A stretch of 40,847 bases of DNA from positions 1-40,847 of the forward strand of contig JAGONL010000002.1 of assembly GCA_017993025.1 (NCBI GenBank). The letters run 5' to 3'. Positions 5,887-32,137 of the stretch are shown in pieces. Under the pieces are notes generated by a model, which searched no databases, was not told the origin of the DNA, and worked only from the letters and a program-made list of their open reading frames with translations. The stretch is from Candidatus Saccharimonadota bacterium. GTDB lineage: Bacteria > Patescibacteriota > Saccharimonadia > Saccharimonadales > SZUA-47. A program made the translations under genes and the position numbers. Each line of letters starts with the position of its first letter. Within the stretch, counting starts at the first letter, position 1.

Positions 5887-5904
5887 ATTTTAGTTAAGAG
5901 TCTT

Positions 5905-6329: not shown

Positions 6330-6334
6330 TACTC
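6310..6334. repeat. upstream arm of the inverted repeat bracketing the four-helix-bundle gene
   Basis: See 5905-5929. This arm overlaps the atpH stop and the four-helix-bundle gene start (TAATG at 6327-6331). Confidence 0.85.
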
Positions 6335-7773: not shown

Positions 7774-7855
7774 CTTAAGGTCAATTATATCCTTTCATGG
7801 ACCCATCCCCAAGCATATTTTTAAACTGCAAAACATTTTTGCCAACTTATCAACT

Positions 7856-7903
7856 AGTTTTTCTTCGCACCTTATCCAAGGATAAGCTTTGTCGAAAGAA
7901 CAA
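7856..7903. repeat. CTTATCC-hairpin repeat, copy 1
   Basis: ttcttcgcaccttatccaaggataagctttgtcgaaagaac closely matches the reverse complement of 13281-13325. Confidence 0.7.
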
Positions 7904-9735: not shown

Positions 9736-9997
9736 GGGATAGGGTTGAGGGTAGAGGGTACAGGGTACAGACTTTAGGGTGTAGGGTATAGGGTAGAGAT
9801 ACAATATCTGATATTTGATAATTGATATTTGAAGTAGGGGCAAGATTTTAAATTTTAGAATTTAGTCCTCCGGCTGGCGGATTTAGATTTATAATTTAAA
9901 ACTTTCGACTTTTCGACTTTTGACTTGCGACTTTTGACCTTCAACTTCATTGTAGCTAAAACCCTTGACCCTAAACCCTACACCCTATACCCTATAG
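9736..9997. repeat. composite word-repeat spacer with complementary outer arms
   Basis: AGGGT-words at 9736-9799 are complementary in kind to ACCCT-words at 9961-9997. Inside are gatattt words, ttttaga words, the tcctccggctggcgga hairpin (9866-9881) and cgactttt words (9903-9948). Confidence 0.8.
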
Positions 9998-10627: not shown

Positions 10628-11245
10628 ATGCCACTGTTATACTTATCGAATCCAGAGCTTTTTTATGCACCTGAAGGATTAGTCGTTGGAGCAAAATATC
10701 CTCACTCTATAGATCCAGCTTGTGCTATTTCGCTTGGTAAAGGTGTTATCTTTAGGTCAAGGTCTGACAAAGCGTATATTCATCCACCAACTACCCACAG
10801 AGGAGCCTCACAGCCAGAGGTACACAAAACTGCATTAACAGCTTGGCTTAGGCACGATATACATGATATAGAAGTTGATTTACTTGACCCAGAACTTGAA
10901 GAAACAAAAAATCTAAATGATTACGCAGATACGGTAGACAGAATTTTTGGCGTTTCTACAACAAACAGACGAATCGTGATTCTGCCACCTAGAGCAGTAA
11001 TTTCACCTCGGACAATGTTTGGAAGAATATCGATGATTTCAGGCCTACTTAATAGCGGGGACATGGTTTGGCACGACCAAGGTTCTTTCGATACGTTAGC
11101 TAAAACAACATTAGAACCCGGAGACATTGTCGCTGCTGAGGGAAGCATAGCAAATAGCATTGCAAACACTTCGATTTCAGGAACTTTGGTCTTTCTAGAG
11201 CAGACGTGCGCAAGAAACAGTTTTACATTTCCAGTTGGTGAGTAG
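10628..11245 (+). CDS. hypothetical protein
   Basis: 205 aa ORF of normal composition. No family recognised. Confidence 0.6.
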   Translation: MPLLYLSNPELFYAPEGLVVGAKYPHSIDPACAISLGKGVIFRSRSDKAYIHPPTTHRGASQPEVHKTALTAWLRHDIHDIEVDLLDPELEETKNLNDYADTVDRIFGVSTTNRRIVILPPRAVISPRTMFGRISMISGLLNSGDMVWHDQGSFDTLAKTTLEPGDIVAAEGSIANSIANTSISGTLVFLEQTCARNSFTFPVGE

Positions 11246-11252
11246 CTTTAGT

Positions 11253-11564
11253 CTATAAATCGCCACTCAGGCGCTCAAAGGCGTCTAAGAAACGACGCAA
11301 TGGTTTTTGGTGTTTAGAGATAGCATAGTAAACCCGCAGGTGGTCGTGAGTTCTATCAGACGATATAAGGCCTACTTCGTTTAGTATTCTCAGCTTTTTA
11401 GAAAGAGTAGCCGGGTTAATTCCTAGCTGGTCGCGCAGTTCCGTAAAGTTTTTTTCGCCATAACGCTCTAGTTCAAATAGAATCTTTAAAACTGTACTAT
11501 CTCCAAGCACAAAAAATCCACGGAGTAACATGAGTAGTTGTTTTTCTGTTAGGTGGTCTTTCAT
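11253..11564 (-). CDS. ArsR/SmtB-type winged-helix transcriptional regulator
   Basis: 103 aa with the HTH region KNFTELRDQLGINPATLSKKLRILNEVGLISSD. Confidence 0.75.
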   Translation of the reverse strand: MKDHLTEKQLLMLLRGFFVLGDSTVLKILFELERYGEKNFTELRDQLGINPATLSKKLRILNEVGLISSDRTHDHLRVYYAISKHQKPLRRFLDAFERLSGDL

Positions 11565-13270: not shown

Positions 13271-13335
13271 AAAAATAGTAGTTCTTCCGACAAGACTTAT
13301 CCTTAGATAAGGTGCGAAGGAAAACTACTATTTTT
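13271..13335. repeat. CTTATCC-hairpin repeat, copy 2 (opposite orientation to copy 1)
   Basis: aaaaatagtagtt...cttatccttagataag...aactactattttt has a 13 bp outer stem. The core matches the reverse complement of 7861-7901. Confidence 0.7.
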
Positions 13336-20891: not shown

Positions 20892-20959
20892 AAATTATCC
20901 TTATTAATATAACAGGGATTGATAATCCAGGGCTTCACCTCTATACTTATCAGAGGATT

Positions 20960-20975
20960 GCCGCCCTGGTGGAAT
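20960..20975 (+). repeat. 16 nt duplicate of the tRNA-Leu 5' end
   Basis: gccgccctggtggaat is identical to 21026-21041. Confidence 0.8.
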
Positions 20976-21025
20976 AATTTAAAAACCAATTTTAACAACT
21001 AGCGAATTTATCAATACTATTTGGA

Positions 21026-21111
21026 GCCGCCCTGGTGGAATGGTAGACACGCCGGACTCAAAATCCTGTGAGCTTATGCTCGTGACGGTTCAAGTCCGTC
21101 GGGCGGCACCA
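21026..21111 (+). tRNA. tRNA-Leu(CAA), class II with a long variable arm and encoded CCA
   Basis: Acceptor stem GCCGCCC/GGGCGGC, anticodon loop CUCAAAA, variable arm, T arm GACGG-TTCAAGT-CCGTC, discriminator A, then CCA. There is one C/U mismatch in the anticodon stem. Confidence 0.85.
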
Positions 21112-21127
21112 AATGAGATTGATATAT

Positions 21128-21400
21128 TATTTTTTTGAATTCGACTCGTAAAGTCGCTGGCTTCAATGGGCTTTTCGCGCCCATACCTACGACTCTCATT
21201 TTTTAATCGCAAAAAACGAGAGGCAAAAAAGCGACAGCCTGCTGAGAATACATAACTAGTTCCAGATACCAGCAACTTTCGCGCTGTAAGAACGCAAGCG
21301 TCCAGTAAACAATTTAAATAATGTATGTTTCTGGATTAGCTTACAGCTTGACTCGAAAGTCACTGATTGGAGCTAATCAGTATTTCAGGGGCTGGAGGAG
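21128..21400 (-). repeat. structured repeat element, copy A (candidate ncRNA; 5' domain type 1, 3' module x)
   Basis: Colinear with copies B, C, D, E and F when read on the minus strand. See the first finding for helices and covariation. Confidence 0.85.
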
Positions 21401-21434
21401 CTGCAAGGGCAACTATTGGGTAAGATTCAAAGAG

Positions 21435-21463
21435 TTGTAGTCTAAGTGTTAGTGTGTTATAGT
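21435..21463 (+). promoter_or_regulatory. sigma70-like promoter upstream of the cassette leader
   Basis: TTGTAG (21435-21440), 17 nt, then TGtTATAGT (-10 at 21458-21463). The ATG at 21470 is 7 nt downstream, so the transcript may be leaderless. Confidence 0.35.
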
Positions 21464-21469
21464 ATATTT

Positions 21470-21577
21470 ATGAACAAAGTTAACCTAAAGGCAGTCTTAA
21501 ACATTTCTCGACAGCAAACTGCCGTATTCTTTGGTTTTACTTCATTTATACCGGCGGTAACTCCTAGAACGTATTAA
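21470..21577 (+). CDS. candidate Phe-rich leader peptide (35 aa)
   Basis: MNKVNLKAVLNISRQQTAVFFGFTSFIPAVTPRTY has 4 Phe codons within 8 codons (21527-21549). It lies between a promoter-like site and a terminator, upstream of the PheRS-like operon. Confidence 0.3.
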   Translation: MNKVNLKAVLNISRQQTAVFFGFTSFIPAVTPRTY

Positions 21578-21598
21578 ACGACCATAAATAATCACAAG

Positions 21599-21627
21599 AG
21601 CGACCGCCACCAAAAGCGGTCGTTTTT
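21599..21627 (+). terminator. intrinsic terminator-like hairpin plus U-tract (candidate attenuator)
   Basis: agcgaccgc-caccaaaa-gcggtcgtt followed by ttttt. It lies 35 nt upstream of the ATG at 21662, on the same strand. Confidence 0.55.
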
Positions 21628-21661
21628 AATTTTAAAAATATTAGGAGAATAGGAGAAAATT

Positions 21662-22216
21662 ATGGAAATTTACAAAGAACTACTAGAGCGTGTTGCTGAA
21701 CCACATCAGTGGCACTTATCTGGCACTAGAAAGGGTAAAGTAAAAATAGATGAGGGTAAAGAACTACTGAAAGTAGAGCTTGGCCAAAAAATTCACACTA
21801 TTCAGTTGCAGATTGCCGACCCAACAAAAGCACGTCGAAGACCCGAATTACTAAGAACGGATAGACTCATGCGTCGTATGTACAGTACAACTCGTGACGG
21901 ATTGTTGGTCGGTAGATTAATTGGTATGTCGGTCAACGGTCGTCCGGTGGAAGGTGTTCCTAGTTTTGGATCACACAAAAGAAACATGAATCAGGAATGG
22001 CAAGATCGTTTAGAAGCGGATGGTGACAACCTGATAGGATTACAAATTGCTGGATGTATATTACAGCAAGCGATTAATATTGTCCCTGATCAAGAACTGC
22101 CTGAGGCCTATGAGCAACGCTCAACGCTTAATGACCTAGATATAAGGGCAAACGGCATTCTACTGGGAATTAAGTCGGTTCGACTGGATATGAGCAGATC
22201 GGGACTATCAGTATGA
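21662..22216 (+). CDS. hypothetical protein, first gene of the aaRS-like cassette
   Basis: 184 aa with a strong RBS (aggagaataggagaaaattATG). Its stop overlaps the next start (ATGA at 22213-22216). No family recognised. Confidence 0.7.
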   Translation: MEIYKELLERVAEPHQWHLSGTRKGKVKIDEGKELLKVELGQKIHTIQLQIADPTKARRRPELLRTDRLMRRMYSTTRDGLLVGRLIGMSVNGRPVEGVPSFGSHKRNMNQEWQDRLEADGDNLIGLQIAGCILQQAINIVPDQELPEAYEQRSTLNDLDIRANGILLGIKSVRLDMSRSGLSV

Positions 22217-23343
22217 AAATGTACATTAAACCAATAACAAAAACTGAGCTCAAGAAGTACCTCAGCATTAAAGACTTAACGCAGGATACCAATCATTCGA
22301 TTGGTATCCTAGCAAATATGATCATGGACCGTATGCGTCTAACTCATCCCAATTCCGATGTGCGGGTTTATCGAAACAATCCTGCGGTAACTACGGAGGA
22401 TAATTACGATAATCTGTGTATCAAAGCCGACAATATTAGTCGTTCGTCTGCCTATACCCACTACATAGACAGTACTCACGTTTTAAGAACCCACACATCA
22501 GCACAAATTCCGGGCATATTGCGTAGCCTCGCTAAAGATAGCACTTGGAGCGACGTGCTTATTTTAATTCCAGGCCTTGCCTATAGACGAGACGTCACAG
22601 ATAAAAAGCATGTAGGTGAAGTACATATGTTAGATATGTGGCGCATTGTAAGAAGTGATAAGGTAAAAGTCATCGCAAAGGATGATCTACTTCATGTTGT
22701 TGAAGATATCGCATCTGTTGCATCACCAGGATGGAACTTGAGAATCATTGATTCACCACACCCGTATACAAAACAAGGCATAGAAGTAAATGCCGTGCTA
22801 GGTGATCGTGATATAGAAATACTTGAATGCGGATTAGTAGGAGATGAGGTCATGAAAAAAGCTGGCCTAGACCCAAGTGTCTGTTCGGGCTGGGCACTTG
22901 GTATGGGTCTGGACCGTCTTACAATGACACTAAAAAATATTCCCGATGTTCGATACTTGCGATCTTCAAATCCCAAAATTGCTTTTCAAATGAAAGATCT
23001 CTCGAAATATATAGAGGTGTCACATCAACCGGCTATAATTCGAGACATGTCCTACAGTGTACCGGAGGGATACGTTGAAGAAGATGTGAATGAAGATATC
23101 CGAATAGCACTTGGAAAACGAGCAGGTATTTTAGAAAGTGTAGAAATTCTAAACGAAACAAGCTACAAAGATCTGCCAGAACAAGTACGTACTAGACTAG
23201 GCATCTCTAAAGATCAAAAAAATCTGCTTGTACGAGTAACACTAAGACATCTTAATCGAAGTCTAACCAACGATGAGGCAAATACCATTTACGATCAGGT
23301 TTACGATGTTATTAACTATGGATCAGGAGGATATCCGTCATGA
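22213..23343 (+). CDS. single-chain phenylalanyl-tRNA synthetase-like protein (PheS-type class II core fused to a C-terminal FDX-ACB domain)
   Basis: 376 aa. LRTHTSAQIPGILR, PGLAYRRD and EILECGLVGDEVMKKAGLDPSVCSGWALGMGLDRLTMTLKNIPDVRYL parallel PheS motifs 2 and 3. The C-terminal PAIIRDMSYSVPEG...LLVRVTLRHLNRSLTNDEAN resembles the ferredoxin-fold anticodon-binding domain of PheT and mitochondrial PheRS. Confidence 0.75.
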   Translation: MKMYIKPITKTELKKYLSIKDLTQDTNHSIGILANMIMDRMRLTHPNSDVRVYRNNPAVTTEDNYDNLCIKADNISRSSAYTHYIDSTHVLRTHTSAQIPGILRSLAKDSTWSDVLILIPGLAYRRDVTDKKHVGEVHMLDMWRIVRSDKVKVIAKDDLLHVVEDIASVASPGWNLRIIDSPHPYTKQGIEVNAVLGDRDIEILECGLVGDEVMKKAGLDPSVCSGWALGMGLDRLTMTLKNIPDVRYLRSSNPKIAFQMKDLSKYIEVSHQPAIIRDMSYSVPEGYVEEDVNEDIRIALGKRAGILESVEILNETSYKDLPEQVRTRLGISKDQKNLLVRVTLRHLNRSLTNDEANTIYDQVYDVINYGSGGYPS

Positions 23344-23427
23344 ACGGCATGAAACAACACTACTGCCTAAAATTTGGTAGACTAACCATATGAAACAAGA
23401 AAATAATAAAACAGAGGGGATAATGCT

Positions 23428-24168
23428 ATGACTGAATTACTATATTTACAGGATTTTGACACTGTAACTTGCGCTGCTGTTGTAGAGCATATAGGTAAAA
23501 CGGGTGACGGCAGAGCAGATATTGTGCTTGATAGAACCTGCTTTTATCCGCGTGGGGGTGGGCAGGACTGGGACAAGGGTGAAATATCTTCTGGTAATTT
23601 AAAACTTATTGTTGAAGAAGTTCGACTTGATGAAAACGGCAATGTACATCACGTAGGCACACTGGCTGGCGGAATGTTTATGGTCGGAGAAGATGTAGAC
23701 TGCAGTGTTGATACAGAAAGACGCATAATTAACACTAGATTGCACTCTGGTGGACACGTTGTTGACATGGCTGTTGACAGTCTTGAACTCGATTGGATTG
23801 CTACAAAAGGACAACACTATCCAGAGTTATGCGCAATAGAATATTCAGGAACTTGGGATGTCGAAAAGGCAGAGGAACTCCGATCAAGTATTGAGCAAAA
23901 AACTAATGAGTTTGTAAAGAGCGCATACCAAACAAGCCTGCGCTTCATGCCTTTGCAAGAAATGCATACTGTATGTCGTCACGTACCCGAGAATATTCCG
24001 AAAAACAAGCCAGGCCGAGTAGTGATGTATGGTGAAGATTTTGGTATTCCATGCGGTGGCACTCACGTAAAAAATCTCTCGGAAATTGGTGAGATTAAAG
24101 TTTCAAAGCTAAAAGAGAAAAAAGGTGTGATTCGTTTAAACTATGAGGTAGTTGGAATTAACGCCTAA
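23428..24168 (+). CDS. AlaX-like aminoacyl-tRNA trans-editing protein (Thr/Ala-tRNA synthetase second additional domain)
   Basis: 246 aa with FYPRGGGQDWDKG, an HxxxH zinc motif (HSGGH) and a CxxxH motif (CGGTH). Confidence 0.8.
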   Translation: MTELLYLQDFDTVTCAAVVEHIGKTGDGRADIVLDRTCFYPRGGGQDWDKGEISSGNLKLIVEEVRLDENGNVHHVGTLAGGMFMVGEDVDCSVDTERRIINTRLHSGGHVVDMAVDSLELDWIATKGQHYPELCAIEYSGTWDVEKAEELRSSIEQKTNEFVKSAYQTSLRFMPLQEMHTVCRHVPENIPKNKPGRVVMYGEDFGIPCGGTHVKNLSEIGEIKVSKLKEKKGVIRLNYEVVGINA

Positions 24169-24189
24169 GTGAAACAAAACTATTAAAGC

Positions 24190-24466
24190 CCTGTAGCCCG
24201 TCCACCCTCTGAAATACTGATTCATGACAATCAGCCACTTCTGAGTCAAGCATTAAGCAAATCCAGAAACATATATCTTAAAGTTGTTTACTGGACGCTT
24301 GCGTCCTTAATGCGCAGAAGTGGGTGGTATCTGTCATGAGTCATGTATTCTCAATAGGGTGTCGCTTTCTTTGCTTCATTTCTTTGCGACCAAAGAAATG
24401 AAGGCCTAGCACGACTGGCAAAAGTCGTATGTTCGTAGGTATGGGCGCGAAAAGCCCATTGTAGCC
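24190..24466 (+). repeat. structured repeat element, copy B (5' domain type 2, 3' module y)
   Basis: See the first finding. Its 3' end abuts the sortase gene start on the same strand. Confidence 0.85.
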
Positions 24467-24505
24467 TATTTGAACAGTGCTAGCCTGAGAAATGTTATAC
24501 TGTTA

Positions 24506-25876
24506 ATGATTATGGCTGACGATAATACAAACAATAGCTCCGATGATGATTTGCTGGCAGAACTTAGGGCGAGAACTGCAATGCTTGCTGAGAAAGTTCA
24601 TGGCCACGAAGATCCAGCAAATAGAGTTTTGAAGCTTAATGACACTTCAGAAGATGGTGACGATTTTGTTGACTCGCTGAAACAGGACAAGCCAGAAATA
24701 CAACAGACAAAATCTGAAACTTTAGAGCTTTTTGACTCAAAAGGCAATCCTGCAGTTGAACTTGTGCGCCAAAAACTGGCAAATCTATACAAAAAAGAAC
24801 CAGATGCTAAAACAGAAGCTATAGAATCGTATCAGGCAGGCAAGCACCGCTCTAAGCACCAAATGGTTATGTATAATTTATCGACTTCAGGCAGATCCCT
24901 AGCCGATATTCAGACTCAGTGGCACGAATATTACAGTGGACTTCCTGACGAAGAAAAGCACCAGGTTTGGCAAGAATTCTATGAAAATCAGGGTCAAGTT
25001 TCAGCATTTGAAATGGCTCAACCGAAAACACAAAAATCGATCACCCCAGCACCACATAAAAAATCTAAAGCCCCTAAAATTTTCGCTGTTCAAAACCCCG
25101 GAGACACTCGTACAGTTGGCGAAATCAAAAACTCGCTCTATGACAAAGTCAGTGCAGGGGGCAAGCTAACTGCTGTCCATCACTTTAAATCACTTTTGTT
25201 TGGGTTGGGACTAGCGTCATTGGTTGGGTTAATTATTACGTTTACTTTCTTTAATGAGGTGTTTATCGCACCATTTATAAGCCCCGGCAAAAACGTATCT
25301 GCCACACCTATAATCGGTAATCAAACAGGGGATGTTGGTCCGGAGTCTAAAATTATTATTCCTAAAATTAACCTAGAAGTTCCTGTTGTTTTTGGCATGA
25401 CTACGATTGACGAAAAACAGGTTCAGTCAGAGCTTGAAAACGGGGTTGTGCACTATGCCAGCACCCCAAACCCTGGGGAAAGTGGAAACGTGGCGATTGT
25501 TGGGCATTCTAGCAATAATATCCTGAACTCCGGTAAGTATAAATTTGCTTTTGTACTACTTAAAAAACTAGAAGCAGAGGATACATTTTTTGTTCAAAAA
25601 GACGGTATTCGTTACACCTATAAAGTCTACAAAAAAGAAGTTGTAGGACCAGATAATGTTGCCGTGTTAGACACTCAAGAAAAACCGAACACAATTACCC
25701 TGATTACCTGTGACCCGCCTGGTACGTCTATAAATAGATTAATAATAACGGCAGAGCAGATATCGCCTGACCCTCTAGGCAATAAACCTAGCACGGCCAT
25801 TCCGGTAACTGCGGAGGAAGTAGACAAGCTTCCTAGCAACGCGCCAAGTTTATGGTCGCGAATCTGGCCCTTCTAG
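24506..25876 (+). CDS. sortase-family transpeptidase with a long N-terminal region and TM anchor
   Basis: The track ORF starts at TTG 24470, inside repeat B, so it is trimmed to the ATG at 24506. Catalytic His (IVGHSSNN), TLITCDPPG Cys motif, TM helix LLFGLGLASLVGLIITFTFF. Confidence 0.8.
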   Translation: MIMADDNTNNSSDDDLLAELRARTAMLAEKVHGHEDPANRVLKLNDTSEDGDDFVDSLKQDKPEIQQTKSETLELFDSKGNPAVELVRQKLANLYKKEPDAKTEAIESYQAGKHRSKHQMVMYNLSTSGRSLADIQTQWHEYYSGLPDEEKHQVWQEFYENQGQVSAFEMAQPKTQKSITPAPHKKSKAPKIFAVQNPGDTRTVGEIKNSLYDKVSAGGKLTAVHHFKSLLFGLGLASLVGLIITFTFFNEVFIAPFISPGKNVSATPIIGNQTGDVGPESKIIIPKINLEVPVVFGMTTIDEKQVQSELENGVVHYASTPNPGESGNVAIVGHSSNNILNSGKYKFAFVLLKKLEAEDTFFVQKDGIRYTYKVYKKEVVGPDNVAVLDTQEKPNTITLITCDPPGTSINRLIITAEQISPDPLGNKPSTAIPVTAEEVDKLPSNAPSLWSRIWPF

Positions 25877-26155
25877 TCGTCTCGCAGACGACACTACTTT
25901 TCGGCTACAGGCGAGCAAAGGGGCTAGTGCCAGCCCCTTAAACCCCTCGCCATACTTTTCCCTACAGGCGCAAAAGTATGCAAAAGCCCCGCAGCCTATC
26001 TGCGAAACATCTTTAAAGACAAACTAACCAGAACCTAGTCGCGCCCTGAGGACGCAAGCGGTCAAAAGTGAGTTTAATAACTGAGTACTTTTGACTTGGC
26101 TCAGGGCTTGATTCGCCTAGCCCCTGATTGTCTTTAAGCGTTTACAGAGGCTGAC
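25877..26155 (-). repeat. structured repeat element, copy F (divergent type 3)
   Basis: See the first finding. Its 3'-terminal hairpin gtcgtct-cgc-agacgac (25876-25892) sits at the sortase stop codon. Confidence 0.8.
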
Positions 26156-26184
26156 CTAGCTGCACGAGCTACGTAGCTACTGTG

Positions 26185-26427
26185 GCTCAACCACCCCTTG
26201 AAATACTGATTCATGACAATCAGCCACTTCTGAGTCAAGCATTAAGCAAATCCAGAAGTACATAACCATTGAATTACTTACTGGACGCTTGCGTTCTTAA
26301 TGCGCAGAAGTGGGTGGTATCTGTCTTGAGTAATGTATCTTCAATAGGGTGTCGCTTTTTTGCCTCTCGTTTTTTGCGATTAAAAAATGAGAGTCGTAGG
26401 TATGGGCGCGAAAAGCCCGTTGTAGCT
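26185..26427 (+). repeat. structured repeat element, copy C (5' domain type 2, 3' module x)
   Basis: See the first finding. Head-to-head with copy F. Confidence 0.85.
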
Positions 26428-26454
26428 TGGCGATTTTTCAAAAGTCGTTATTCT

Positions 26455-27939
26455 TTATCTATCCTCAGCCGTGCGCATGAATGTACGGATTAGCTGGTAT
26501 GGCTCTGCTACGGTAGTGCCGGTGACGGCTGTGTACATAAAGTCGTGGCTGTTATTGAAAAAACTTCCTAGTTGACCGTTGGCAGATACCATATCATAGC
26601 GGTTACTTCCGTCAAAATCTATCATCAGCTGTTTTCCGGCGATGCTTAGTAGAAAATGTTGTCCGTCAATCCAATTTAGTTTTGTGCCTTCGTCTATTTG
26701 GTTTTCTAACTTAAAACTGTATGACCTATCAGCGTCAAACTCATGACTAGCAAGAGTCTGCGTACCACGGACTACAATAACGCTAGAATCTGCGGAAATC
26801 TCAAGCTCTGAAGGATTATCTACCCGCAGAACCGTTGTTGGTACGGGAATAGAAGAGAAGTCGTTGTTTTTAAGGGAATTAACAGGGTCGTTATAAATAA
26901 TTGCTCTATTCTCAACTGGCGAACTTATGCCTAGTACTATGGCATCTCCTAGCTTGGACATATCTAGAAGATATTTTGGGCTCTCTTTAAAACTGCGTAT
27001 TTTATGGGTATCATTTCCGTTTTTAAGATAAGCAGTAACGGTTCCGGCTTCAGAGTTTTTGGACGTTATATACAGTACAGTGTCGTCGCCAAACGTTTTA
27101 TAAGCCAGCACGTCTTGCAGTACAACACTGAAAATTCCGTCGCGCGTATCGGCCTGATATAGAGTTTTGCTCGTACCGTCATATAAATACAACAAATCGT
27201 TTTTTCTTGACCGTAGACTAACTTCTGAATACGGCACAGTAGGGAAGAGGGTCTTTAGTTTTTTAGATTTTGTACCGTCTTCTCTATCAATTATTACGTA
27301 CTCTGAAGTGCTGGCAGTACGGTAAACGGCAAGGAAGTTCTTGTTGTCATCTGCCCAATCAATAACCTCCCAGGTGCCGGGCTCTTTTGTGTCAAGCAAT
27401 CCTAATGGTAGGGGCAGATTAATATAGTCAAACTGGCTTTTAGTTATGTCAATAACGCGCATTAATAACGGATTATCTGTAAAAGAAGTTACTAACCATC
27501 TTTTATCTATGCTTTGCGACATCATATTAGGGATTGCGGGCATATTGATGGCAAGTTCGCTGTCCAGAACCTCTGGCACCATCCGTGCGTATGTAAGCCG
27601 ACGCAGGCTTCCACCCTCTAGCGCTAGGTTTCGGCTCCAGGTTCTGTAACCATCACGCCGTAGTTCAATATCGTAAGATCCTGCTGGCAAAACCAACCTA
27701 GCGTCTGTTCGTCCACGTTGTTTTTGACCATTAAGAAAAATTTCTGCAGATTCTGGCTTGCTATCTAGATACACCAATCCGTTTTGAATAACTTCACCAG
27801 TTTGCCTATCTATCGAATAACCGTTAATCAAATACACAAAAACAACTGTTGCAATAGCTATCGCAATACCAATCAGCACGTACATAATCATCAGTTTAGT
27901 TTTTTTTCGTCGCTTTTTAAGTGGGTCTAAATAGTCCAT
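26455..27939 (-). CDS. PEGA domain-containing membrane-anchored protein
   Basis: 494 aa with an N-terminal TM helix. PEGA-like segment SKPESAEIFLNGQKQRGRTDARLVLPAGSYDIELRRDGYRTW, followed by a large beta-rich region. Confidence 0.65.
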   Translation of the reverse strand: MDYLDPLKKRRKKTKLMIMYVLIGIAIAIATVVFVYLINGYSIDRQTGEVIQNGLVYLDSKPESAEIFLNGQKQRGRTDARLVLPAGSYDIELRRDGYRTWSRNLALEGGSLRRLTYARMVPEVLDSELAINMPAIPNMMSQSIDKRWLVTSFTDNPLLMRVIDITKSQFDYINLPLPLGLLDTKEPGTWEVIDWADDNKNFLAVYRTASTSEYVIIDREDGTKSKKLKTLFPTVPYSEVSLRSRKNDLLYLYDGTSKTLYQADTRDGIFSVVLQDVLAYKTFGDDTVLYITSKNSEAGTVTAYLKNGNDTHKIRSFKESPKYLLDMSKLGDAIVLGISSPVENRAIIYNDPVNSLKNNDFSSIPVPTTVLRVDNPSELEISADSSVIVVRGTQTLASHEFDADRSYSFKLENQIDEGTKLNWIDGQHFLLSIAGKQLMIDFDGSNRYDMVSANGQLGSFFNNSHDFMYTAVTGTTVAEPYQLIRTFMRTAEDR

Positions 27940-28070
27940 ATTTTGTTTGGGTGTCCTACTATACTCAATTATGTCATATGTTGCTCATTTTTACCTTGCG
28001 AAATTAGCGCATAAGAGATACGATATAGTAGCATAGGGTAACAAACAAAAGACTCCAGGAGTAAACATAC

Positions 28071-29174
28071 GTGGGCACACAACATCAAGACGTTATTGAA
28101 ATAAACGGCAAAAAATACGACGCAGTTACAGGCCGGCTTATCGTAGACCAAAGGCAAGAGTCAGAAAATGTTAACGCAAAGATGCCCCAACCTAAAAGCG
28201 GAGTGGTGCTAGATGGCTTTGTTAAAAGAACTCATCATGCAGACATAGCTCACGCACCAGCCTCTCATCACAAAAAACCTGTTCAGAAATCACAAACATT
28301 AATGCGCCAAGTAGTCAAAAAGCCGGCGACTCAACCATTATCACCACCGAAACCCGTATCAAAGCACCAACTTGTTAAGCCAACACTAGTTGCATCAACA
28401 CACATGCAAAAAAGCGCATCTGAGGTTAAAAAGAACCCTTTCGTGTCTAGATATGGCGACATTCAGCACCGCTCTACAGTAGTTAAAAAAGTTCAAGCCT
28501 TGGAGGTTAAAAAGCCAGAGCAATATACTGTCTCATCTGTAACACCACAAATATCTAGTCACAATGCAAGTGCTGTTGAGCACAACAGTGGTGGTCGTAG
28601 TAAAGCTACAAGCATGATGCTGGAAAGAGGGCTTGCAAACGCAACTAGCCATGAACTTCCAACACTGCCGTCCCAGCATCAGAACAAACGTAAAAAACTA
28701 GCCCACAAACTGGGTATAAGCGCCCGGGCAATGGCTATAAGCACTACAGTTCTAGCCGGAGTGTTACTTGGTGGGTTTTTTGCAATACAGAATGTACCGA
28801 ATCTATCTATGAGGGTTGCGGCAGCACGTGCAGGCTTTGACGCCAGCATGCCTGGATACAGCCCCTCTGGTTTTAGCTTTAAGGGTCCAATTAAATACAG
28901 TCCAGGACAAGTAACAATTTCTTTTGATTCAAACACTGACGACAGAGAATATACGGTAACTCAAAGATCCACAAACTGGAACAGCGATGCACTATTATCA
29001 AACTACGTAGTTACAAGCAACAAGCAGTACCAGACGTATCTAGACCGTGGTAGAACTCTATATATTTATGATGAATCAAACGCAACATGGATAGATAACG
29101 GTGTTTGGTATCAGGTTGAAGGTAACAGCGACATGACAACCGACCAACTTGTGCGCATCGCTTCCAGCATCTAG
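28071..29174 (+). CDS. hypothetical membrane-anchored protein (C-terminal DUF4367-like region)
   Basis: 367 aa with a GTG start, a basic low-complexity N-terminal half, one TM helix (AISTTVLAGVLLGGFFAI) and a C-terminal globular domain. Confidence 0.6.
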   Translation: MGTQHQDVIEINGKKYDAVTGRLIVDQRQESENVNAKMPQPKSGVVLDGFVKRTHHADIAHAPASHHKKPVQKSQTLMRQVVKKPATQPLSPPKPVSKHQLVKPTLVASTHMQKSASEVKKNPFVSRYGDIQHRSTVVKKVQALEVKKPEQYTVSSVTPQISSHNASAVEHNSGGRSKATSMMLERGLANATSHELPTLPSQHQNKRKKLAHKLGISARAMAISTTVLAGVLLGGFFAIQNVPNLSMRVAAARAGFDASMPGYSPSGFSFKGPIKYSPGQVTISFDSNTDDREYTVTQRSTNWNSDALLSNYVVTSNKQYQTYLDRGRTLYIYDESNATWIDNGVWYQVEGNSDMTTDQLVRIASSI

Positions 29175-29311
29175 GGACTAGCCTCAGTTTAAAGTTGCAG
29201 GGTTGAAGAGTTACAGTGTTATGATTATGGAACTTTTAACTCTGGAACTCTTATACTTTTAACCTCCTATTACCCATATTTCAGTGTCTCTTGTGATGTA
29301 CAATTGTAGTT

Positions 29312-29809
29312 ATGGCTAATTACAAAGGACACGTAGCGGGTGGGGCAGTTGCGGGGATTATATATTACGGAGTTATATCTTATGTACCGATTGAGAGATT
29401 TGCTGAGGCTGCAGGTCTATTGTACGACTGGCAAGCAATATTTGCTGTGATTGTTATATCTACGCTTTTTGGGCTTTTCCCGGATGTAGACACCAACAGC
29501 AAAGCTCAGGATTTATTCTTTGGTATTGTGTTTCCTCTAGATATATTGCTGTTGTGGGCAGGTAGTATAGTGGCTGCTGCGTATTTAGGGCTAATATCAA
29601 TGCTACCCATTATTGGCCACCACCGTGGATGGACACACAAAAAATGGGCAATGATTGTTATACCACTGCCGATACTACTAATACCGTACCTATATGACAG
29701 TGCAAGTCTACCGATTTCTACAATCTATTACGGAGCTGCGGTTACTGGCTATTTTAGCCACCTGTTACTTGACGGTCTTATCTGGCGCAAGTTCCGCATA
29801 AAAAACTAA
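29312..29809 (+). CDS. membrane-bound metal-dependent hydrolase-like protein (YdjM/DUF457 family)
   Basis: 165 aa with N-terminal KGH, FPDVDT, HRGWTH and SHLLLD motifs across TM helices. Confidence 0.65.
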   Translation: MANYKGHVAGGAVAGIIYYGVISYVPIERFAEAAGLLYDWQAIFAVIVISTLFGLFPDVDTNSKAQDLFFGIVFPLDILLLWAGSIVAAAYLGLISMLPIIGHHRGWTHKKWAMIVIPLPILLIPYLYDSASLPISTIYYGAAVTGYFSHLLLDGLIWRKFRIKN

Positions 29810-29835
29810 TCTTAGTTTGTAATTTTATCAAGAAT

Positions 29836-30079
29836 CTAGCTACAAGTGGCTGTTTCGGCGCCACACCCCCGACTATCTTTTTCCTACAGGTGAAAAAGAT
29901 AGCAAAAACCCCGCACCCGACTGAAGAAACGTGATTAAAATCAAGGTACCAGACATACTCGCGCGACAAGAACGCAAGCGTCCAATAAGCAATTTAAATT
30001 AAGTATGCTTTTGGATTAGCTTGTCGCTTGATTCGAGCATGCCTGATTGATTTCATCAGTTTTTCAGAGGGTGGTTGGC
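29836..30079 (-). repeat. structured repeat element, copy D (type 3)
   Basis: See the first finding. Confidence 0.85.
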
Positions 30080-30086
30080 TACATAC

Positions 30087-30143
30087 CAGAGTTCGACCAG
30101 GCTCTGATTGTCTCTCAGGAGTTTACAGAGGGCTGACTAGCTA
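30087..30143 (-). repeat. partial 5' fragment of a type 3 (F-like) structured repeat
   Basis: ccagagttcgaccaggctctgattgtctctcaggagtttacagagggctg parallels 26101-26153 of copy F. Confidence 0.6.
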
Positions 30144-30169
30144 CAAAGACATGTAGCTACAGAGCACTT

Positions 30170-30410
30170 GTAGCCCTCCAGCCCCTGAATTACTGATTAG
30201 TTCCAATCAGTGACTTTCGAGTCCAGTGGCAAGATAATCCAGAAACACATAACTTCAGAAATTGTTTACTGGACGCTTGTCGTTCTTGCCAAGCGAAAGT
30301 TACTGGTATTTGGAACTAGTCATGTATCTTCAGCAGGCTGTCGCTTTCTTTGCTTCGTTTCTTTACGACAAAAGAAATGAAGGCCTGGTGTGGCGGGCAA
30401 AGCCACAAAC
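30170..30410 (+). repeat. structured repeat element, copy E (5' domain type 1, 3' module y)
   Basis: See the first finding. Confidence 0.85.
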
Positions 30411-30463
30411 CAAACAACAAAAATCTAAAAATGCGGGTCAAGCGAAGCGCTTGAAATTTATTT

Positions 30464-32137
30464 TTAGCTTAGTCTTGATGTGACGCGTTCTTCGCCCATG
30501 ATTTGGCAGATTGTCCAGAGGTCGGGGGTGCGGGATTTACCGGTTAGCGAGACGCGGATAATTTTGGCAAAGTCAGATATTCCACCTTTGTATTTGTCGG
30601 GGTTTTCTTTAAGCTCTTTGCGGTCCAGTGAATAACCAGCAGATTCTGCAGATTTTTTCATGTTTTCAAACCAAGCGTCTTTGTCGGCTTGGTGGTCGTA
30701 ATTGTCCATAAATGCCTTGCGCGCATCGTCTTGAACATCTGCCGGGACTTCTTCTTCAAAATCGCACATAGCTCCGGGAAGTATATTCATTTCAAAAATA
30801 TCGTCGTAGAAGTAACCGAACTGGTCGGGAGCATCGGACCACTTTGCCATGTCTTTGCGCGGGTTATCGCCGTCTCGCTCAATCGACAAAACTGCATTGG
30901 TGTAGCCTGGGTCTGCCGTCATTACATCATAAAGTGTTTTGTGGTGAGTTTTGGTCCAAGCCAATACCTCAGCATTAAAATCTACTTGAGGCATTCGGGC
31001 AATTTCGTCTTTAGCGTAATCTTCAACCTTTTTCATATCTAGTAGCGGGGAACGGGACGACGCTAGTTTCTCAAGGCTAAACGGGAAATCAGCCAAATCG
31101 GCATCTGGATTATCCCGATACCAATCTTCAAAGTTTGAATTTGCTAAACCTAACAAATAAGCTTTGATAGCTTTTAGCGGATAGGCAGACTTTTGCCAGA
31201 AGGCCACGTCCGCCTCTGGGTCTTTACGCTTGGATAGTTTTCTTTTACCACCTTCAACGCCGACTATAGAAATAACTGGTGTGTGCGCATAACGGAACGG
31301 CTTAATGCCTAGAGATTCAGCTAGTTCAATGTGTAGTGGGGTTGACGGCAACCACTCCTCGCCACGAAGAATAATAGTAGCCTTCATTAGATAATCATCT
31401 ACAACATGCGCCAAGTGATAGGTAGGCAGTCTATATTCGTCAGACTTGATTAACGGTACATCTAAATCGTTTTCTGGCACAACCATATGACCTTTCAGTA
31501 CATCTTCAAACTCTATGCGCTTTTCATGGGCTCCTTCTGAGCGGAAACGCAGTACAAAGGGTTTTCCGGCCTCTAGAGCCTGTTTAACGTCAGAATCGTC
31601 TCTATCACGCCATAATGCCCAACTACCGTAATAGCCAGGGCGTTGTTTTTTGGACTGCTGGTCACGAACGGCCTCCTGCAACTCTTCTGTGGTTGCAAAA
31701 CAGGGGTAGGCACGGCCTTTTTCTAGCAAATCTAATGCGTAGGCAAGGTAAATGTCTGCGCGCTCACTCTGTACATAAGGCCCATATTCACCTAAAACAC
31801 TACCGTCAGCCTGCAGTCCTTCGTCTGGTGCAATGCCAAAAGCGTTTAACTGAGTAGCTATTAGCACTTTGGCACCTTCAACCTCGCGTTTTTTGTCGGT
31901 ATCCTCAATACGCAAGATATAAACACCACCAGATTGATGGGCGACATATTGGCAAATCATACCGGTAAATATCGCCCCAATATGGACAAACCCGGTGGGT
32001 GATGGGCAAAACCGCGTAACCTCTGCACCGACGGGCAGATTTCGCATTGGATATCTTTGTTCTACGGCGGTCCTTGGCTCAATTTGACGATTTTGTGTCA
32101 AAATTTCGATGACTTGTTGTTTTAGTTGTTCGTTCAT
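30464..32137 (-). CDS. gltX: glutamate--tRNA ligase
   Basis: 557 aa with PSPTGFVHIGA (HIGH-type) and KLSKRK (KMSKS-type). Class I Glu/Gln-type core with a C-terminal extension. Confidence 0.88.
   Translation of the reverse strand: MNEQLKQQVIEILTQNRQIEPRTAVEQRYPMRNLPVGAEVTRFCPSPTGFVHIGAIFTGMICQYVAHQSGGVYILRIEDTDKKREVEGAKVLIATQLNAFGIAPDEGLQADGSVLGEYGPYVQSERADIYLAYALDLLEKGRAYPCFATTEELQEAVRDQQSKKQRPGYYGSWALWRDRDDSDVKQALEAGKPFVLRFRSEGAHEKRIEFEDVLKGHMVVPENDLDVPLIKSDEYRLPTYHLAHVVDDYLMKATIILRGEEWLPSTPLHIELAESLGIKPFRYAHTPVISIVGVEGGKRKLSKRKDPEADVAFWQKSAYPLKAIKAYLLGLANSNFEDWYRDNPDADLADFPFSLEKLASSRSPLLDMKKVEDYAKDEIARMPQVDFNAEVLAWTKTHHKTLYDVMTADPGYTNAVLSIERDGDNPRKDMAKWSDAPDQFGYFYDDIFEMNILPGAMCDFEEEVPADVQDDARKAFMDNYDHQADKDAWFENMKKSAESAGYSLDRKELKENPDKYKGGISDFAKIIRVSLTGKSRTPDLWTICQIMGEERVTSRLS

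What the first reader, a model, noticed from the sequence alone, without database searches (positions are those of the whole stretch)
21401..24189. Three-gene cassette between the heads of a repeat pair, next to tRNA-Leu: unknown protein, single-chain PheRS-like enzyme and AlaX-like editing protein
In the pairs F/C and D/E the facing 5' ends are separated by only about 30-90 nt. In pair A/B the same position holds a 2.8 kb, same-strand cassette with its own promoter-like site, leader and terminator.

ORF 22213-23343 has PheS-type motifs 2 and 3 fused to a C-terminal FDX-ACB-like domain. By established knowledge this is the architecture of monomeric mitochondrial PheRS. Canonical bacterial PheRS is an (alpha-beta)2 enzyme encoded by pheS and pheT. 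Motif 2 is divergent (HVGEVHMLDMW instead of H.P.FHQ.EG), so its specificity is uncertain.

ORF 23428-24168 is a free-standing AlaX-type editing domain with HxxxH and CxxxH motifs. ORF 21662-22216 is translationally coupled to the PheRS-like gene and matches nothing I recognise.

Possible readings are: (a) the lineage's minimal housekeeping PheRS with a trans-proofreading partner; (b) an acquired, inhibitor-resistant or specialised aaRS module; (c) a tRNA-dependent module of unknown chemistry carried by the repeat element. I cannot distinguish these from the sequence alone.
Basis: partly seen in the sequence, partly recalled or inferred. Interest (0 to 1): 0.78.

Follow-up and report, generated by a model that had tools for sequence, protein, structure and literature searches.

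The report
Phenylalanine-sensing operon with single-chain PheRS-like ligase
The three genes are real, and the central one belongs to an already catalogued but uncharacterised family of mitochondrial-type, single-chain PheRS-like ligases (SrmL); a conserved phenylalanine-rich leader peptide and terminator upstream suggest it is switched on when charged tRNA-Phe runs low.

Summary
In detail: ORF184 (21662-22216), a 376-aa PheS-core + FDX-ACB protein (22213-23343) and an AlaX-type protein (23428-24168) lie on one strand between inverted copies of a ~270-nt repeat, next to tRNA-Leu.

The middle gene is an equivalog-level member of NCBIfam NF051887, "PheS-related mystery ligase SrmL". The family occurs in Saccharibacteria and, at about 40% identity, in Actinomycetota such as Nocardia and Kocuria. 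Its AlphaFold model matches human mitochondrial PheRS over the full length (TM 0.77).

Phe-rich leader ORFs precede SrmL in about 30 of 42 Saccharibacteria loci. In one leader type the Gly-Gly codons covary with the terminator stem. This is a classical Phe attenuator.

My best reading is a single-chain PheRS induced when Phe-tRNA is scarce, probably auxiliary. Whether it is the only PheRS in this lineage could not be tested.

- ORF184 is a strict orphan.
- The AlaX gene is the ordinary Saccharibacteria AlaX.
- A close relative (L092) has the same leader, AlaX and sortase without SrmL, ORF184 or the repeats, so the "repeat-element cargo" reading is not supported.

The parts
21026..21111 (+). 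tRNA-Leu(CAA); context only, not part of the operon
   Evidence: ARAGORN; Rfam tRNA, 52.8 bits
21160..21408 (-). Repeat copy A (core hairpin 21232-21396). Flanks the operon. Absent at this position in the relative L092.
   Evidence: the repeat finder I1/I2/I4; CM R1, 186 bits; L092 comparison
21435..21463 (+). Promoter-like site: weak -35 TTGTAG (21435-21440), 17 nt spacer, extended -10 TGtTATAGT (21455-21463). This would start the transcript at or near the leader ATG, giving a leaderless mRNA (inferred).
   Evidence: Read from the sequence. The -10 block is conserved in L092. The consensus scanner does not flag it.
21470..21577 (+). Leader peptide ORF, 35 codons: MNKVNLKAVLNISRQQTAVFFGFTSFIPAVTPRTY*. 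The Phe codons cluster at 21527-21547. The segment ACUGCCG (21518-21524) can pair with CCGGCGGU (21551-58).
   Evidence: Homologous Phe-rich leader ORFs lie upstream of SrmL in about 30 of 42 Saccharibacteria loci and in 3 of 3 metagenome matches.
21596..21633 (+). Attenuator terminator: AAGAGCGACCGC-CACCAAAA-GCGGUCGUUUUU followed by AAUUUU. Its 5' arm ACCGCC (21603-21608) is complementary to GGCGGU (21553-21558) inside the leader ORF, which would form the antiterminator.
   Evidence: RNAfold, -17.8 kcal/mol. Nearly invariant in W, L036, L018, L032, L046, L034, L092, L097-99. In type III leaders the Gly-Gly codons covary with the terminator stem.
21662..22216 (+). ORF184: an orphan protein with a strong RBS (AGGAG 21651-21655). 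It overlaps srmL by 4 nt. It occupies the place where relatives have either nothing or an unrelated 71-113 aa ORF.
   Evidence: Only self hits in 5.8e9 proteins and in 1.84e9 representatives. No Pfam or NCBIfam family. Host-like codon usage in frame. AF2 pLDDT 37. A nonsense variant exists in one sample (L085).
22213..23343 (+). srmL: single-chain PheS-type class II catalytic core (motif 2 at 22582-22641, HPYT at 22759-22770, motif 3 at 22888-22920) fused to a C-terminal FDX-ACB-like anticodon-binding domain.
   Evidence: NCBIfam NF051887, 399 bits against cutoff 300; Pfam; PDB sequence search; AF2 plus Foldseek
23428..24168 (+). AlaX-M-type free-standing editing protein (HSGGH at residue 106, CGGTH at residue 209). 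No terminator was found between srmL and this gene.
   Evidence: Pfam and NCBIfam; PDB 2e1b, 3.3e-17; 505 homologues, mostly Saccharibacteria; scan
24189..24466 (+). Repeat copy B (core hairpin 24201-24364), between alaX and the sortase gene (ATG 24506). Absent from the same intergenic space in L092.

Best explanation
The region is one operon: an extended -10 promoter, a 35-codon Phe-rich leader peptide, a terminator/antiterminator switch, ORF184, srmL and alaX.

Shown:
- SrmL is a member of NCBIfam NF051887.
- It has the mitochondrial-PheRS architecture, a PheS catalytic module fused to the B8/FDX-ACB anticodon-binding domain.
- It keeps the class II ATP-binding arginines of motifs 2 and 3.
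- A Phe-codon-rich leader ORF with a downstream terminator is conserved upstream of SrmL across Saccharibacteria.

Inferred mechanism: when Phe-tRNA(Phe) is plentiful, the ribosome runs to the leader stop codon and covers GGCGGU. The terminator then forms and transcription stops. When Phe-tRNA(Phe) is scarce, the ribosome stalls on the FFGF.SF codons. GGCGGU then pairs with the terminator's 5' arm, and RNA polymerase reads through into ORF184-srmL-alaX.

Inferred function: SrmL charges tRNA(Phe) with Phe as a single chain without an editing domain. It most likely acts as an auxiliary PheRS that takes over when the canonical enzyme cannot keep tRNA(Phe) charged. Possible causes are Phe scarcity, inhibition or damage of PheST, or competing analogues such as m-Tyr.

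The co-transcribed AlaX-type deacylase may proofread in trans. This is speculative, because it is the ordinary lineage AlaX. ORF184 is a lineage-specific orphan whose translation probably couples ribosomes into srmL, which has no Shine-Dalgarno sequence of its own.
For: Family and fold:
- NF051887 scores 399 bits against a cutoff of 300.
- Nocardia, Kocuria and Ornithinimicrobium homologues score 520 bits on the same model.
- The best solved relatives are human mitochondrial PheRS by sequence (1.8e-26) and by structure (TM 0.77 over the full length).

Leader:
- Phe-rich small ORFs (at least 4 Phe in 8 residues) lie within 900 nt upstream on the same strand in 21 of 42 loci. About 1.4 would be expected from their density in 1.42 Mb.
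- About 9 further loci have the ...NFFM..GGL..F.. type.
- There are three leader types with different peptide tails. They share only the Phe run and a hairpin or terminator.
- In type III, GGGGG, GGAGG or GAGGCC inside the ORF changes together with the terminator stem.
- The type I RNA is nearly invariant although SrmL is only 59-65% identical.
- An exact-pattern scan of metagenomes for the type I attenuator found 3 contigs, and all 3 have SrmL downstream.
- The window's terminator folds at -17.8 kcal/mol.
- E. coli pheM ([14 protein letters not shown]) is the textbook parallel.

Auxiliary rather than sole:
- The family is present in free-living Actinomycetota, which have canonical PheST by established knowledge.
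- Only about 47 Patescibacteria (mostly Saccharibacteria) loci were among the 80 kept from the scan of 185,579 species genomes.
- L092 carries the same leader, AlaX and sortase without SrmL.

Phe pocket: the H183-P-Y185 motif resembles the N-P-Y pocket of eukaryotic cytosolic PheRS, which still recognises Phe (PMC3275996).

Constraint: SrmL is 62-70% identical across genomes whose AlaX proteins are only 44-49% identical.
Against: - There is no biochemical evidence at all. NCBI's curators call the family a 'mystery ligase'.
- No paper containing the name SrmL was found, three further keyword searches found no paper on such a ligase, and a 2022 review of duplicated aaRSs does not mention PheRS at all.
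- The Phe-binding FPF motif is HPY in every family member. The motif 2 Gln is Met in the main Saccharibacteria clade. Amino-acid specificity could therefore differ.
- The C-terminal domain is below Pfam's FDX-ACB threshold. On its own it matches PheRS anticodon-binding domains only at E about 0.2.
- Co-occurrence with canonical pheS/pheT in SrmL-bearing Saccharibacteria was not testable. None lies within the loci I hold.
- The actinobacterial leader ORF has only one Phe codon.
- The consensus scanners do not flag the window's promoter or terminator.
Confidence: 0.55

Rival explanations
1. SrmL is the only, housekeeping PheRS of this Saccharibacteria lineage. A monomeric enzyme has replaced the (alpha-beta)2 PheST, and the Phe attenuator autoregulates it as pheM does for pheST in E. 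coli.
For: - It has the full PheRS-like architecture with the ATP-binding motifs intact.
- It is very strongly conserved, at 62-72% identity across genomes with no synteny.
- Phe attenuation is exactly how E. coli controls its housekeeping pheST.
- Genomes of about 1 Mb rarely keep redundant synthetases.
- No canonical pheS or pheT was seen in any held Saccharibacteria locus, although only about 2% of each genome is held.
Against: - The same family is an extra gene in Actinomycetota, which have PheST.
- SrmL was recovered in only about 47 Patescibacteria (mostly Saccharibacteria) loci among the 80 kept from the genome scan.
- The complete genome RAAC3_TM7_1 (CP006915), which carries a 65% identical AlaX, was not among the 80 loci kept from the genome scan.
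- The close relative L092 has the operon without SrmL.
- Two MAGs carry two different SrmL copies.
Confidence: 0.2
2. SrmL is a PheRS-derived ligase with a different chemistry. It would either activate a Phe analogue or another aromatic amino acid, or load tRNA(Phe) or another acceptor for a non-translational pathway. AlaX and the small upstream proteins would be its partners.
For: - There is an invariant HPYT in place of FPFT, and Gln is replaced by Met in motif 2.
- The protein fails the equivalog cutoffs of both pheS (82 against 237 bits) and pheS_mito (167 against 258 bits).
- A recurrent uncharacterised 71-113 aa ORF lies between the leader and SrmL in at least 12 loci.
- SrmL-AlaX adjacency arose in two lineages.
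Against: - A Phe-codon attenuator senses charged tRNA(Phe). That fits a Phe-tRNA supplier better than a secondary-metabolite enzyme.
- No biosynthetic neighbours are conserved in either phylum.
- An N-P-Y type pocket still binds Phe in eukaryotic PheRS.
- The anticodon-binding domain is retained.
Confidence: 0.15
3. The three genes are cargo that was inserted between, or is moved by, the inverted ~270-nt repeats. This would make the region a composite mobile element next to a tRNA gene.
For: - Inverted copies A and B bracket the cassette, whereas the two other pairs are head-to-head with 30-100 nt between them.
- tRNA-Leu is adjacent.
- In UBA1932 (L004) an unrelated 175-nt, 99% identical inverted repeat brackets SrmL plus two genes.
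- Public assemblies break at the repeats: 16 of 21 contigs are 2-5 kb.
Against: - L092 has the leader, AlaX and sortase in the same order without any repeat. The operon-sortase linkage therefore predates copy B.
- CM R1 finds no copy in 51 other Saccharibacteria loci.
- There is no transposase or integrase in or beside the cassette.
- GC content and codon usage match the rest of the contig.
- Inverted repeats bracket SrmL in only 2-3 of 45 loci.
- The repeat shows compensatory base-pair changes typical of a structured RNA rather than transposon ends.
Confidence: 0.05

Closest known systems
NCBIfam NF051887 'PheS-related mystery ligase SrmL'
   Same: The window protein is an equivalog-level member (399 bits against a cutoff of 300). 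It has the same length, domain order and invariant HPYT and motif 3. Actinomycetota members score 520 bits.
   Different: It belongs to the Saccharibacteria branch, which is reciprocally monophyletic with the Actinomycetota branch in a rough NJ tree. It has Met instead of Gln in motif 2. The family has no assigned function.
Mitochondrial phenylalanyl-tRNA synthetase (FARS2; PDB 3CMQ/5MGV; TIGR00469)
   Same: Both are a single chain made of the PheS catalytic module plus a B8/FDX-ACB anticodon-binding domain, with no editing domain. It is the best sequence and structure match.
   Different: SrmL is bacterial. It is only 22-23% identical, scores below the TIGR00469 cutoff (167 against 258 bits), has HPY instead of FPF in the Phe pocket, and has a shorter N-terminus.
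E. coli pheST operon with pheM leader-peptide attenuator (also pheL-pheA)
   Same: Both have a short leader ORF with a run of Phe codons directly before a terminator/antiterminator switch that controls a PheRS-type gene.
   Different: The leader RNA sequence is unrelated, with no Rfam Phe_leader hit. There are three structural variants. One has the stop codon in the hairpin loop. The controlled gene is a single-chain paralogue, not pheST.
Auxiliary stress- or antibiotic-resistant synthetases, for example Streptomyces coelicolor TrpRS1 (indolmycin-resistant) and B. subtilis TyrZ
   Same: Each is a second synthetase of the same specificity that is expressed only when charging of the cognate tRNA fails. 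The examples are listed in PMC9437257. From my own knowledge, not checked here, trpRS1 is controlled by a Trp-codon leader attenuator.
   Different: No inhibitor or stress is known for SrmL. No PheRS duplicate is listed in that review. The auxiliary role is inferred, not shown.
AlaX-M free-standing Ser/Gly-tRNA(Ala) deacylase (P. horikoshii PH0108, PDB 2E1B; NF040865)
   Same: Both have an N-terminal beta-barrel plus an editing core with HxxxH and CxxxH zinc motifs.
   Different: It scores below the NCBIfam AlaXM cutoff (115 against 300 bits). Here it is transcribed behind a Phe attenuator. Its tRNA substrate is untested.

Membership tests
NCBIfam NF051887 SrmL | Whole-protein HMM score at or above the curated cutoff (300 bits) | tested here: met
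   399.4 bits, E 1.3e-119, residues 20-368 on profile positions 2-347 of 349
NCBIfam NF051887 SrmL | Single chain with a PheS catalytic module plus a C-terminal FDX-ACB-like domain | tested here: met
   Pfam; AF2 model against 5mgv/3cmq, TM 0.76-0.77 over the full length
Mitochondrial PheRS (TIGR00469 pheS_mito) | HMM score at or above the cutoff of 258.35 bits | tested here: not met
   166.9 bits
Mitochondrial PheRS (TIGR00469 pheS_mito) | Phe pocket with the aromatic pair F-P-F | tested here: not met
   H183-P-Y185 in the window and in all 75 family members aligned
Bacterial PheS alpha subunit (TIGR00468) | HMM score at or above the cutoff of 237.45 bits | tested here: not met
   82.3 bits, catalytic core only
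Bacterial PheS alpha subunit (TIGR00468) | Works with a PheT beta subunit encoded nearby | tested here: not met
   No PheT-like sequence in the window or in any of the ~98 held loci with SrmL, AlaX or attenuator matches. The anticodon-binding domain is fused in cis instead.
Any phenylalanyl-tRNA synthetase | Forms Phe-AMP and Phe-tRNA(Phe) | not testable with these tools
   Needs enzymology. Only the motif 2 and 3 arginines and an N-P-Y-like pocket can be read from the sequence.
Leader-peptide transcription attenuators (pheM/pheL type) | Short ORF with a cluster of codons for the regulating amino acid | tested here: met
   4 Phe within 7 codons in the window. 21 of 42 loci pass the criterion of at least 4 Phe in 8 residues, against about 1.4 expected.
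Leader-peptide transcription attenuators (pheM/pheL type) | Intrinsic terminator between the leader ORF and the first structural gene | tested here: met
   RNAfold, -17.8 kcal/mol hairpin plus U-run at 21596-21633. The scanner finds the equivalent in L004 but not in the window.
Leader-peptide transcription antiterminator pairing (pheM/pheL type) | Alternative antiterminator pairing that involves a segment of the leader ORF | tested here: met
   GGCGGU (21553-58) is complementary to ACCGCC (21603-08). In type III leaders the in-ORF G-rich segment covaries with the terminator stem in L003/4/6/7/9/23/24/27. The response to Phe itself was not tested.
Rfam Phe_leader or any Rfam cis-regulatory family | Covariance-model match | tested here: not met
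   No match at gathering score or at E up to 1 in 20900-30600. None in three actinobacterial loci.
AlaX-M (NF040865) | HMM score at or above the cutoff of 300 bits | tested here: not met
   115 bits
AlaX / tRNA_SAD editing domain | tRNA_SAD domain with HxxxH and CxxxH zinc ligands | tested here: met
   PF07973, 35.8 bits against 24; HSGGH at 106 and CGGTH at 209
Composite transposon / MITE-bounded cargo | A transposase or integrase, or the same bounded unit at other sites | tested here: not met
   No such gene in the cassette or next to it. The repeat is absent from 51 other loci and from the syntenic L092.

The most novel reading that the evidence does not exclude
SrmL would be a functional bacterial monomeric PheRS. 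Published reviews hold that this form exists only in mitochondria. On this reading it is either the sister or source lineage of mitochondrial PheRS, or it has fully replaced heterotetrameric PheST in a Saccharibacteria clade. Its catalytic module scores higher against mitochondrial PheRS than against any solved bacterial alpha subunit (80 against 65 bits or less). A third, related version is that it is an inhibitor-insensitive back-up enzyme shared between Saccharibacteria and Actinomycetota (Saccharibacteria are known epibionts of Actinomycetota), which would point to an unrecognised natural PheRS inhibitor.
Probability: 0.2. Interest if true: 0.8.

Novelty: new member of a known kind. Interest (0 to 1): 0.6.

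Why it matters
Textbook and review knowledge (PMC3275996) says that bacterial PheRS is always an (alpha-beta)2 heterotetramer, and that the monomeric CAM+B8 chimera is unique to mitochondria. A conserved bacterial family with exactly that architecture already sits in NCBI's annotation models as a 'mystery ligase'.

The Phe-codon leader and attenuator found here give that mystery a concrete, cheap test: the gene should switch on when tRNA(Phe) charging fails, and the enzyme should charge tRNA(Phe).

If confirmed, it would add PheRS to the list of synthetases with stress-inducible auxiliary copies. It would be relevant to PheRS-targeted antibacterials in Nocardia and relatives. It would also bear on the origin of mitochondrial PheRS. 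For genome annotation, it explains a recurrent 'hypothetical protein / PheS alpha chain' call in Saccharibacteria MAGs.

Tried and rejected
1. Canonical pheS/pheT in the same genomes. The key question stays open.
2. Conserved gene neighbours. All-against-all clustering of 1352 ORFs around 81 SrmL genes gave no partner shared across genera in either phylum.
3. ORF184 as a diverged, extended copy of the 71-113 aa upstream ORF family. I suspected this by eye, but the hmmsearch score is -3.2, below shuffled controls. Rejected.
4. ORF184 structure. The single-sequence AF2 model has pLDDT 37 and is uninformative.
5. Leader as a T-box or other known riboswitch. There is no Rfam hit.
6. Repeat A-F in other genomes. 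blastn and the covariance model R1 found none.
7. Inverted repeats as a general feature of SrmL loci. They occur only in the window, in L003/L004 and weakly in L002.
8. Literature. A search for the name SrmL found no paper containing it, and further keyword searches for a monomeric or auxiliary bacterial PheRS found nothing relevant. PMC13622651 mentions pheS only as a counter-selection marker.
9. Leader peptide as a RiPP precursor for the ligase. Rejected because conservation is at the RNA level, continues past the stop codon and covaries with the terminator. The three peptide tails share only the Phe run.
10. Strain variation for dN/dS on ORF184. The 10 public contigs are 99.9-100% identical, which is too little variation.

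Full report
**What is there**

The window is a Saccharibacteria contig, identical to NCBI GCA_020051655.1 JAHZTJ010002856.1. The three ORFs are exactly as described.

- ORF184 (21662-22216) overlaps the next gene by ATGA.
- The 376-aa protein (22213-23343) has a PheS-type class II core (Pfam tRNA-synt_2d, 5.8e-27). Its C-terminal FDX-ACB match lies just under Pfam's threshold (27.6 against 31.1 bits).
- The 246-aa protein (23428-24168) has the AlaRS beta-barrel plus tRNA_SAD, with HSGGH and CGGTH motifs.
- tRNA-Leu(CAA) is at 21026-21111.
- A ~270-nt repeat occurs six times between 21160 and 30404. Copies A (-) and B (+) bracket the cassette.

**Identity of the ligase**

NCBIfam already holds a curated equivalog model for this protein: NF051887, "PheS-related mystery ligase SrmL". 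The window protein scores 399 bits against a cutoff of 300. It fails the cutoffs for bacterial pheS (82 against 237 bits) and mitochondrial pheS (167 against 258 bits).

By sequence, the closest solved structures are human mitochondrial PheRS (1.8e-26), ahead of bacterial alpha subunits (1e-16 and weaker). An AlphaFold2 model built from 19 family members (pLDDT 83, pTM 0.82) superposes on mitochondrial PheRS over its whole length (TM 0.76-0.77). It superposes on bacterial alpha subunits only over the catalytic half.

According to the PheRS review PMC3275996, this CAM+B8 chimera was thought to exist only in mitochondria.

**Distribution**

A search of 5.8 billion proteins returns 476 relatives. 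The top 120 are all 64-72% identical, and the few that carry an organism name are labelled Saccharibacteria or Saccharimonadales.

A scan of 185,579 species genomes gives two groups:
- about 47 Saccharibacteria/Patescibacteria loci at 53-70% identity, with two at 45%;
- about 33 Actinomycetota loci at 38-43% identity, from Nocardia, Kocuria, Ornithinimicrobium, Paeniglutamicibacter, Microlunatus and Intrasporangium.

The actinobacterial proteins score 520 bits on NF051887, so they are the family's core. In a rough NJ tree the two phyla are reciprocally monophyletic. Neighbouring genes are not conserved across genera in either phylum. SrmL is essentially a stand-alone gene.

**The key new observation: a Phe attenuator**

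Upstream of ORF184 lies a 35-codon ORF (21470-21577) encoding MNKVNLKAVLNISRQQTAVFFGFTSFIPAVTPRTY. It sits behind an extended -10 element (TGtTATAGT). It is followed by a hairpin, AAGAGCGACCGC-CACCAAAA-GCGGUCGUUUUU (21596-21627, -17.8 kcal/mol), then more U residues, an AGGAG ribosome-binding site and the ORF184 ATG.

Inside the leader ORF, CCGGCGGU (21551-58) can pair in two ways. It can pair with ACUGCCG just before the Phe codons, or with ACCGCC in the terminator's 5' arm. This is the classical four-segment attenuator layout.

The same arrangement recurs upstream of SrmL throughout Saccharibacteria, in three variants:
- Type I has the tail ...FF(F)G.F(I/M).A...PRTY* and a nearly invariant RNA from the Phe codons to the terminator. 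It occurs in W, L036, L018, L032, L046, L034, L092 and L097-99.
- Type II has the tail ...SFFFFGFFAA*, with the stop codon in the loop of UUGCUGC-CUA-GCAGCAA followed by a U-rich run. It occurs in 13 loci.
- Type III has the tail ...NFFM.S..GGL..F..*. In it the Gly-Gly codons (GGGGG, GGAGG or GAGGCC) change together with the terminator stem (GCCCCC/GGGGGC, GCCUCC/GGAGGC, GGCCUC/GAGGUC). This is covariation that only an RNA pairing explains.

Under a strict criterion (at least 4 Phe in 8 residues), 21 of 42 loci have such an ORF within 900 nt upstream. About 1.4 would be expected from the background density. With type III the total is about 30 of 42.

An exact-pattern scan of public metagenomes for the type I attenuator found three contigs, and all three have SrmL downstream. 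No Rfam family matches. E. coli pheM ([14 protein letters not shown]) is the obvious analogue.

Actinobacterial srmL genes are preceded by a different conserved small ORF, M..(Q/R)RFL.PRP..GRG... It has an invariant CGATTTC, which contains the TTT Phe codon (uncommon in high-GC genomes, by general knowledge), 5 nt before a GC-rich hairpin. This is suggestive, but weaker evidence.

**What it means**

A leader of this kind reports the supply of charged tRNA(Phe). Saccharibacteria lack amino-acid biosynthesis (established knowledge). A PheS-type enzyme with a retained anticodon-binding domain is therefore the natural output of such a switch.

I conclude that SrmL is most likely a single-chain PheRS made when Phe-tRNA(Phe) is short.

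The altered pocket raises some doubt about specificity. HPYT is invariant in both phyla instead of FPFT, and Gln is replaced by Met in motif 2 in the main Saccharibacteria clade. However, eukaryotic cytosolic PheRS uses an equivalent N-P-Y pocket and still selects Phe, with lower affinity for m-Tyr (PMC3275996).

**Auxiliary or sole PheRS?**

In Actinomycetota SrmL must be an extra copy, because canonical PheST is universal there (established knowledge). Three observations favour an accessory role in Saccharibacteria too:
- It was recovered in only about 47 Patescibacteria (mostly Saccharibacteria) loci among the 80 kept from the genome scan.
- The complete genome RAAC3_TM7_1 carries a 65% identical AlaX but was not among the 80 loci kept from the genome scan.
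- In the close relative L092, SrmL is missing from the operon (see below).

I could not test directly whether SrmL-bearing Saccharibacteria keep pheS/pheT. This is the main open point.

**ORF184**

ORF184 is a strict orphan. Only self hits appear among 5.8e9 proteins and among 1.84e9 representatives read in full by HMMER. It matches no Pfam or NCBIfam family.

Its codon usage is host-like in frame, it has a strong RBS, and it is coupled to srmL, which has no Shine-Dalgarno sequence of its own. It is therefore probably translated. One public population carries a nonsense allele that truncates it to 134 aa (L085).

In L036 the homologous leader is followed directly by srmL. In at least 12 other loci an unrelated 71-113 aa ORF family fills this slot, with the signatures MxxRNMWIGETGR...LDExVPRSW and IG..LH.AETAI. 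ORF184 is not detectably related to that family.

**AlaX**

The AlaX gene is the ordinary Saccharibacteria AlaX. It has 505 relatives at 60-87% identity, including RAAC3_TM7_1. Its closest relatives outside the L092 lineage are not next to SrmL.

Adjacency to SrmL occurs in the W/L092 lineage and, independently, in the L032/L035 lineage. In that lineage the AlaX is only 48% identical to the window's, while L032 and L035 are 78% identical to each other. It also lies within 2.5 kb in L041.

That is more than chance placement in a 1-Mb genome would give. My rough estimate is about 0.3 expected against 3 observed. A trans-editing partnership is therefore possible but unproven.

**The repeats and the 'cargo' idea**

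L092 (GCA_030645135.1) has AlaX at 84% and sortase at 56% identity to the window. Its gene order is promoter, the same Phe leader and terminator (83% nucleotide identity to 21443-21651), a 71-aa small ORF, AlaX and sortase. It has no SrmL, no ORF184 and no repeat.

The operon-sortase linkage is therefore older than repeat copy B. The window differs from L092 by [ORF184+srmL] in place of [small ORF]. The cassette was not dropped between a pre-existing repeat pair.

The repeat itself has a 165-nt core that folds into a 58-bp hairpin. Of the cells, 95.8% are paired, and 22 pairs show compensatory changes. None of 500 shuffles reach this, and slid controls pair 35-42% of cells. The sense strand is the more stable one. 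The repeat is not in Rfam and was not found in 51 other loci. It looks like a lineage-specific structured RNA family that fills intergenic spaces. It deserves its own study.

**Verdict**

The gene family is already catalogued but functionally unknown. The window adds a new member, and this analysis adds a strong regulatory clue. The 'repeat cargo' reading is rejected. The 'auxiliary PheRS' reading is favoured, and the 'sole minimal PheRS' reading remains possible.

Noticed in passing
window 21160-21408(-), 24189-24466(+), 25958-26155(-), 26180-26426(+), 29838-30083(-), 30164-30404(+): There are six copies of a ~270-nt element. Its 165-nt core is a 58-bp imperfect hairpin with 22 compensatory pairs, followed by two smaller covarying hairpins. 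The copies are arranged as head-to-head pairs. The element has no Rfam family, is found only in this contig among 724 kb searched, and public assemblies break at it. It looks like a lineage-specific structured RNA family.
   Followed up: partly
L092:871-1086; L005:132-386; L018:2762-2998; L023:2181-2423; L030:588-881; L031:9757-9999; L032:2948-3172; L035:9736-9993; L046:9651-9992; L047:9766-9999; L049:6876-7208; L097 after 570: A family of 71-113 aa proteins lies between the Phe leader and srmL, often translationally coupled. The N-terminal signature is RNMWIGETGR or IG..LH.AETAI, and the C-terminal signature is LDExVPRSW. It matches no Pfam or NCBIfam family. It is retained in L092 even though srmL is absent.
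   Followed up: partly
L048-L080, about 130-230 nt upstream of srmL (for example L058:9859-10000): Actinobacterial srmL genes are preceded by a conserved small ORF, M..(Q/R)RFL.PRP..GRG..*. It has an invariant CGATTTC 5 nt before the hairpin CCCCGGCCG...CGGCCGCGGGG, and a second G-rich segment downstream. It is conserved across six genera and has no Rfam hit.
   Followed up: partly
L092 (GCA_030645135.1 JAUSNG010000115.1) 657-2804: In this close relative the same Phe attenuator drives a small ORF plus AlaX, with no srmL. AlaX is therefore under Phe-tRNA control there on its own.
   Followed up: partly
L085:495-899 (ENA ERZ28613981): One public population carries a nonsense mutation that truncates ORF184 to 134 aa. 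srmL is unchanged.
   Followed up: partly
L004:18-192 / 2795-2969; L003:8470-8588 / 11193-11311: In UBA1932-like genomes an unrelated GC-rich inverted repeat (175 nt, 99% complementary) brackets srmL plus two small genes. This could be an invertible or recently homogenised segment.
   Followed up: no
L022 and L025 (CAZTOK01); L018 and L027 (CAYQBK01): Two MAGs each carry two different srmL copies. In CAYQBK01 the two copies have different leader types. This reflects either paralogy or mixed bins.
   Followed up: no
window 3317-3406, 3919-3997, 4316-4355, 5884-5935, 6295-6341, 9741-9789: Short periodic repeats with a 7 or 14 nt period (GAGTCATGAGTCAAGAG and AGGGTTGAGGGTTG types) occur in both orientations across several ORFs and spacers.
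   Followed up: no
window 7855-7901 / 13281-13327: A 47-nt inverted repeat, 89% complementary, has arms 5.4 kb apart.
   Followed up: no
L003:12855-13105: Three perfect tandem copies of a 98-nt unit lie at the contig end.
   Followed up: no
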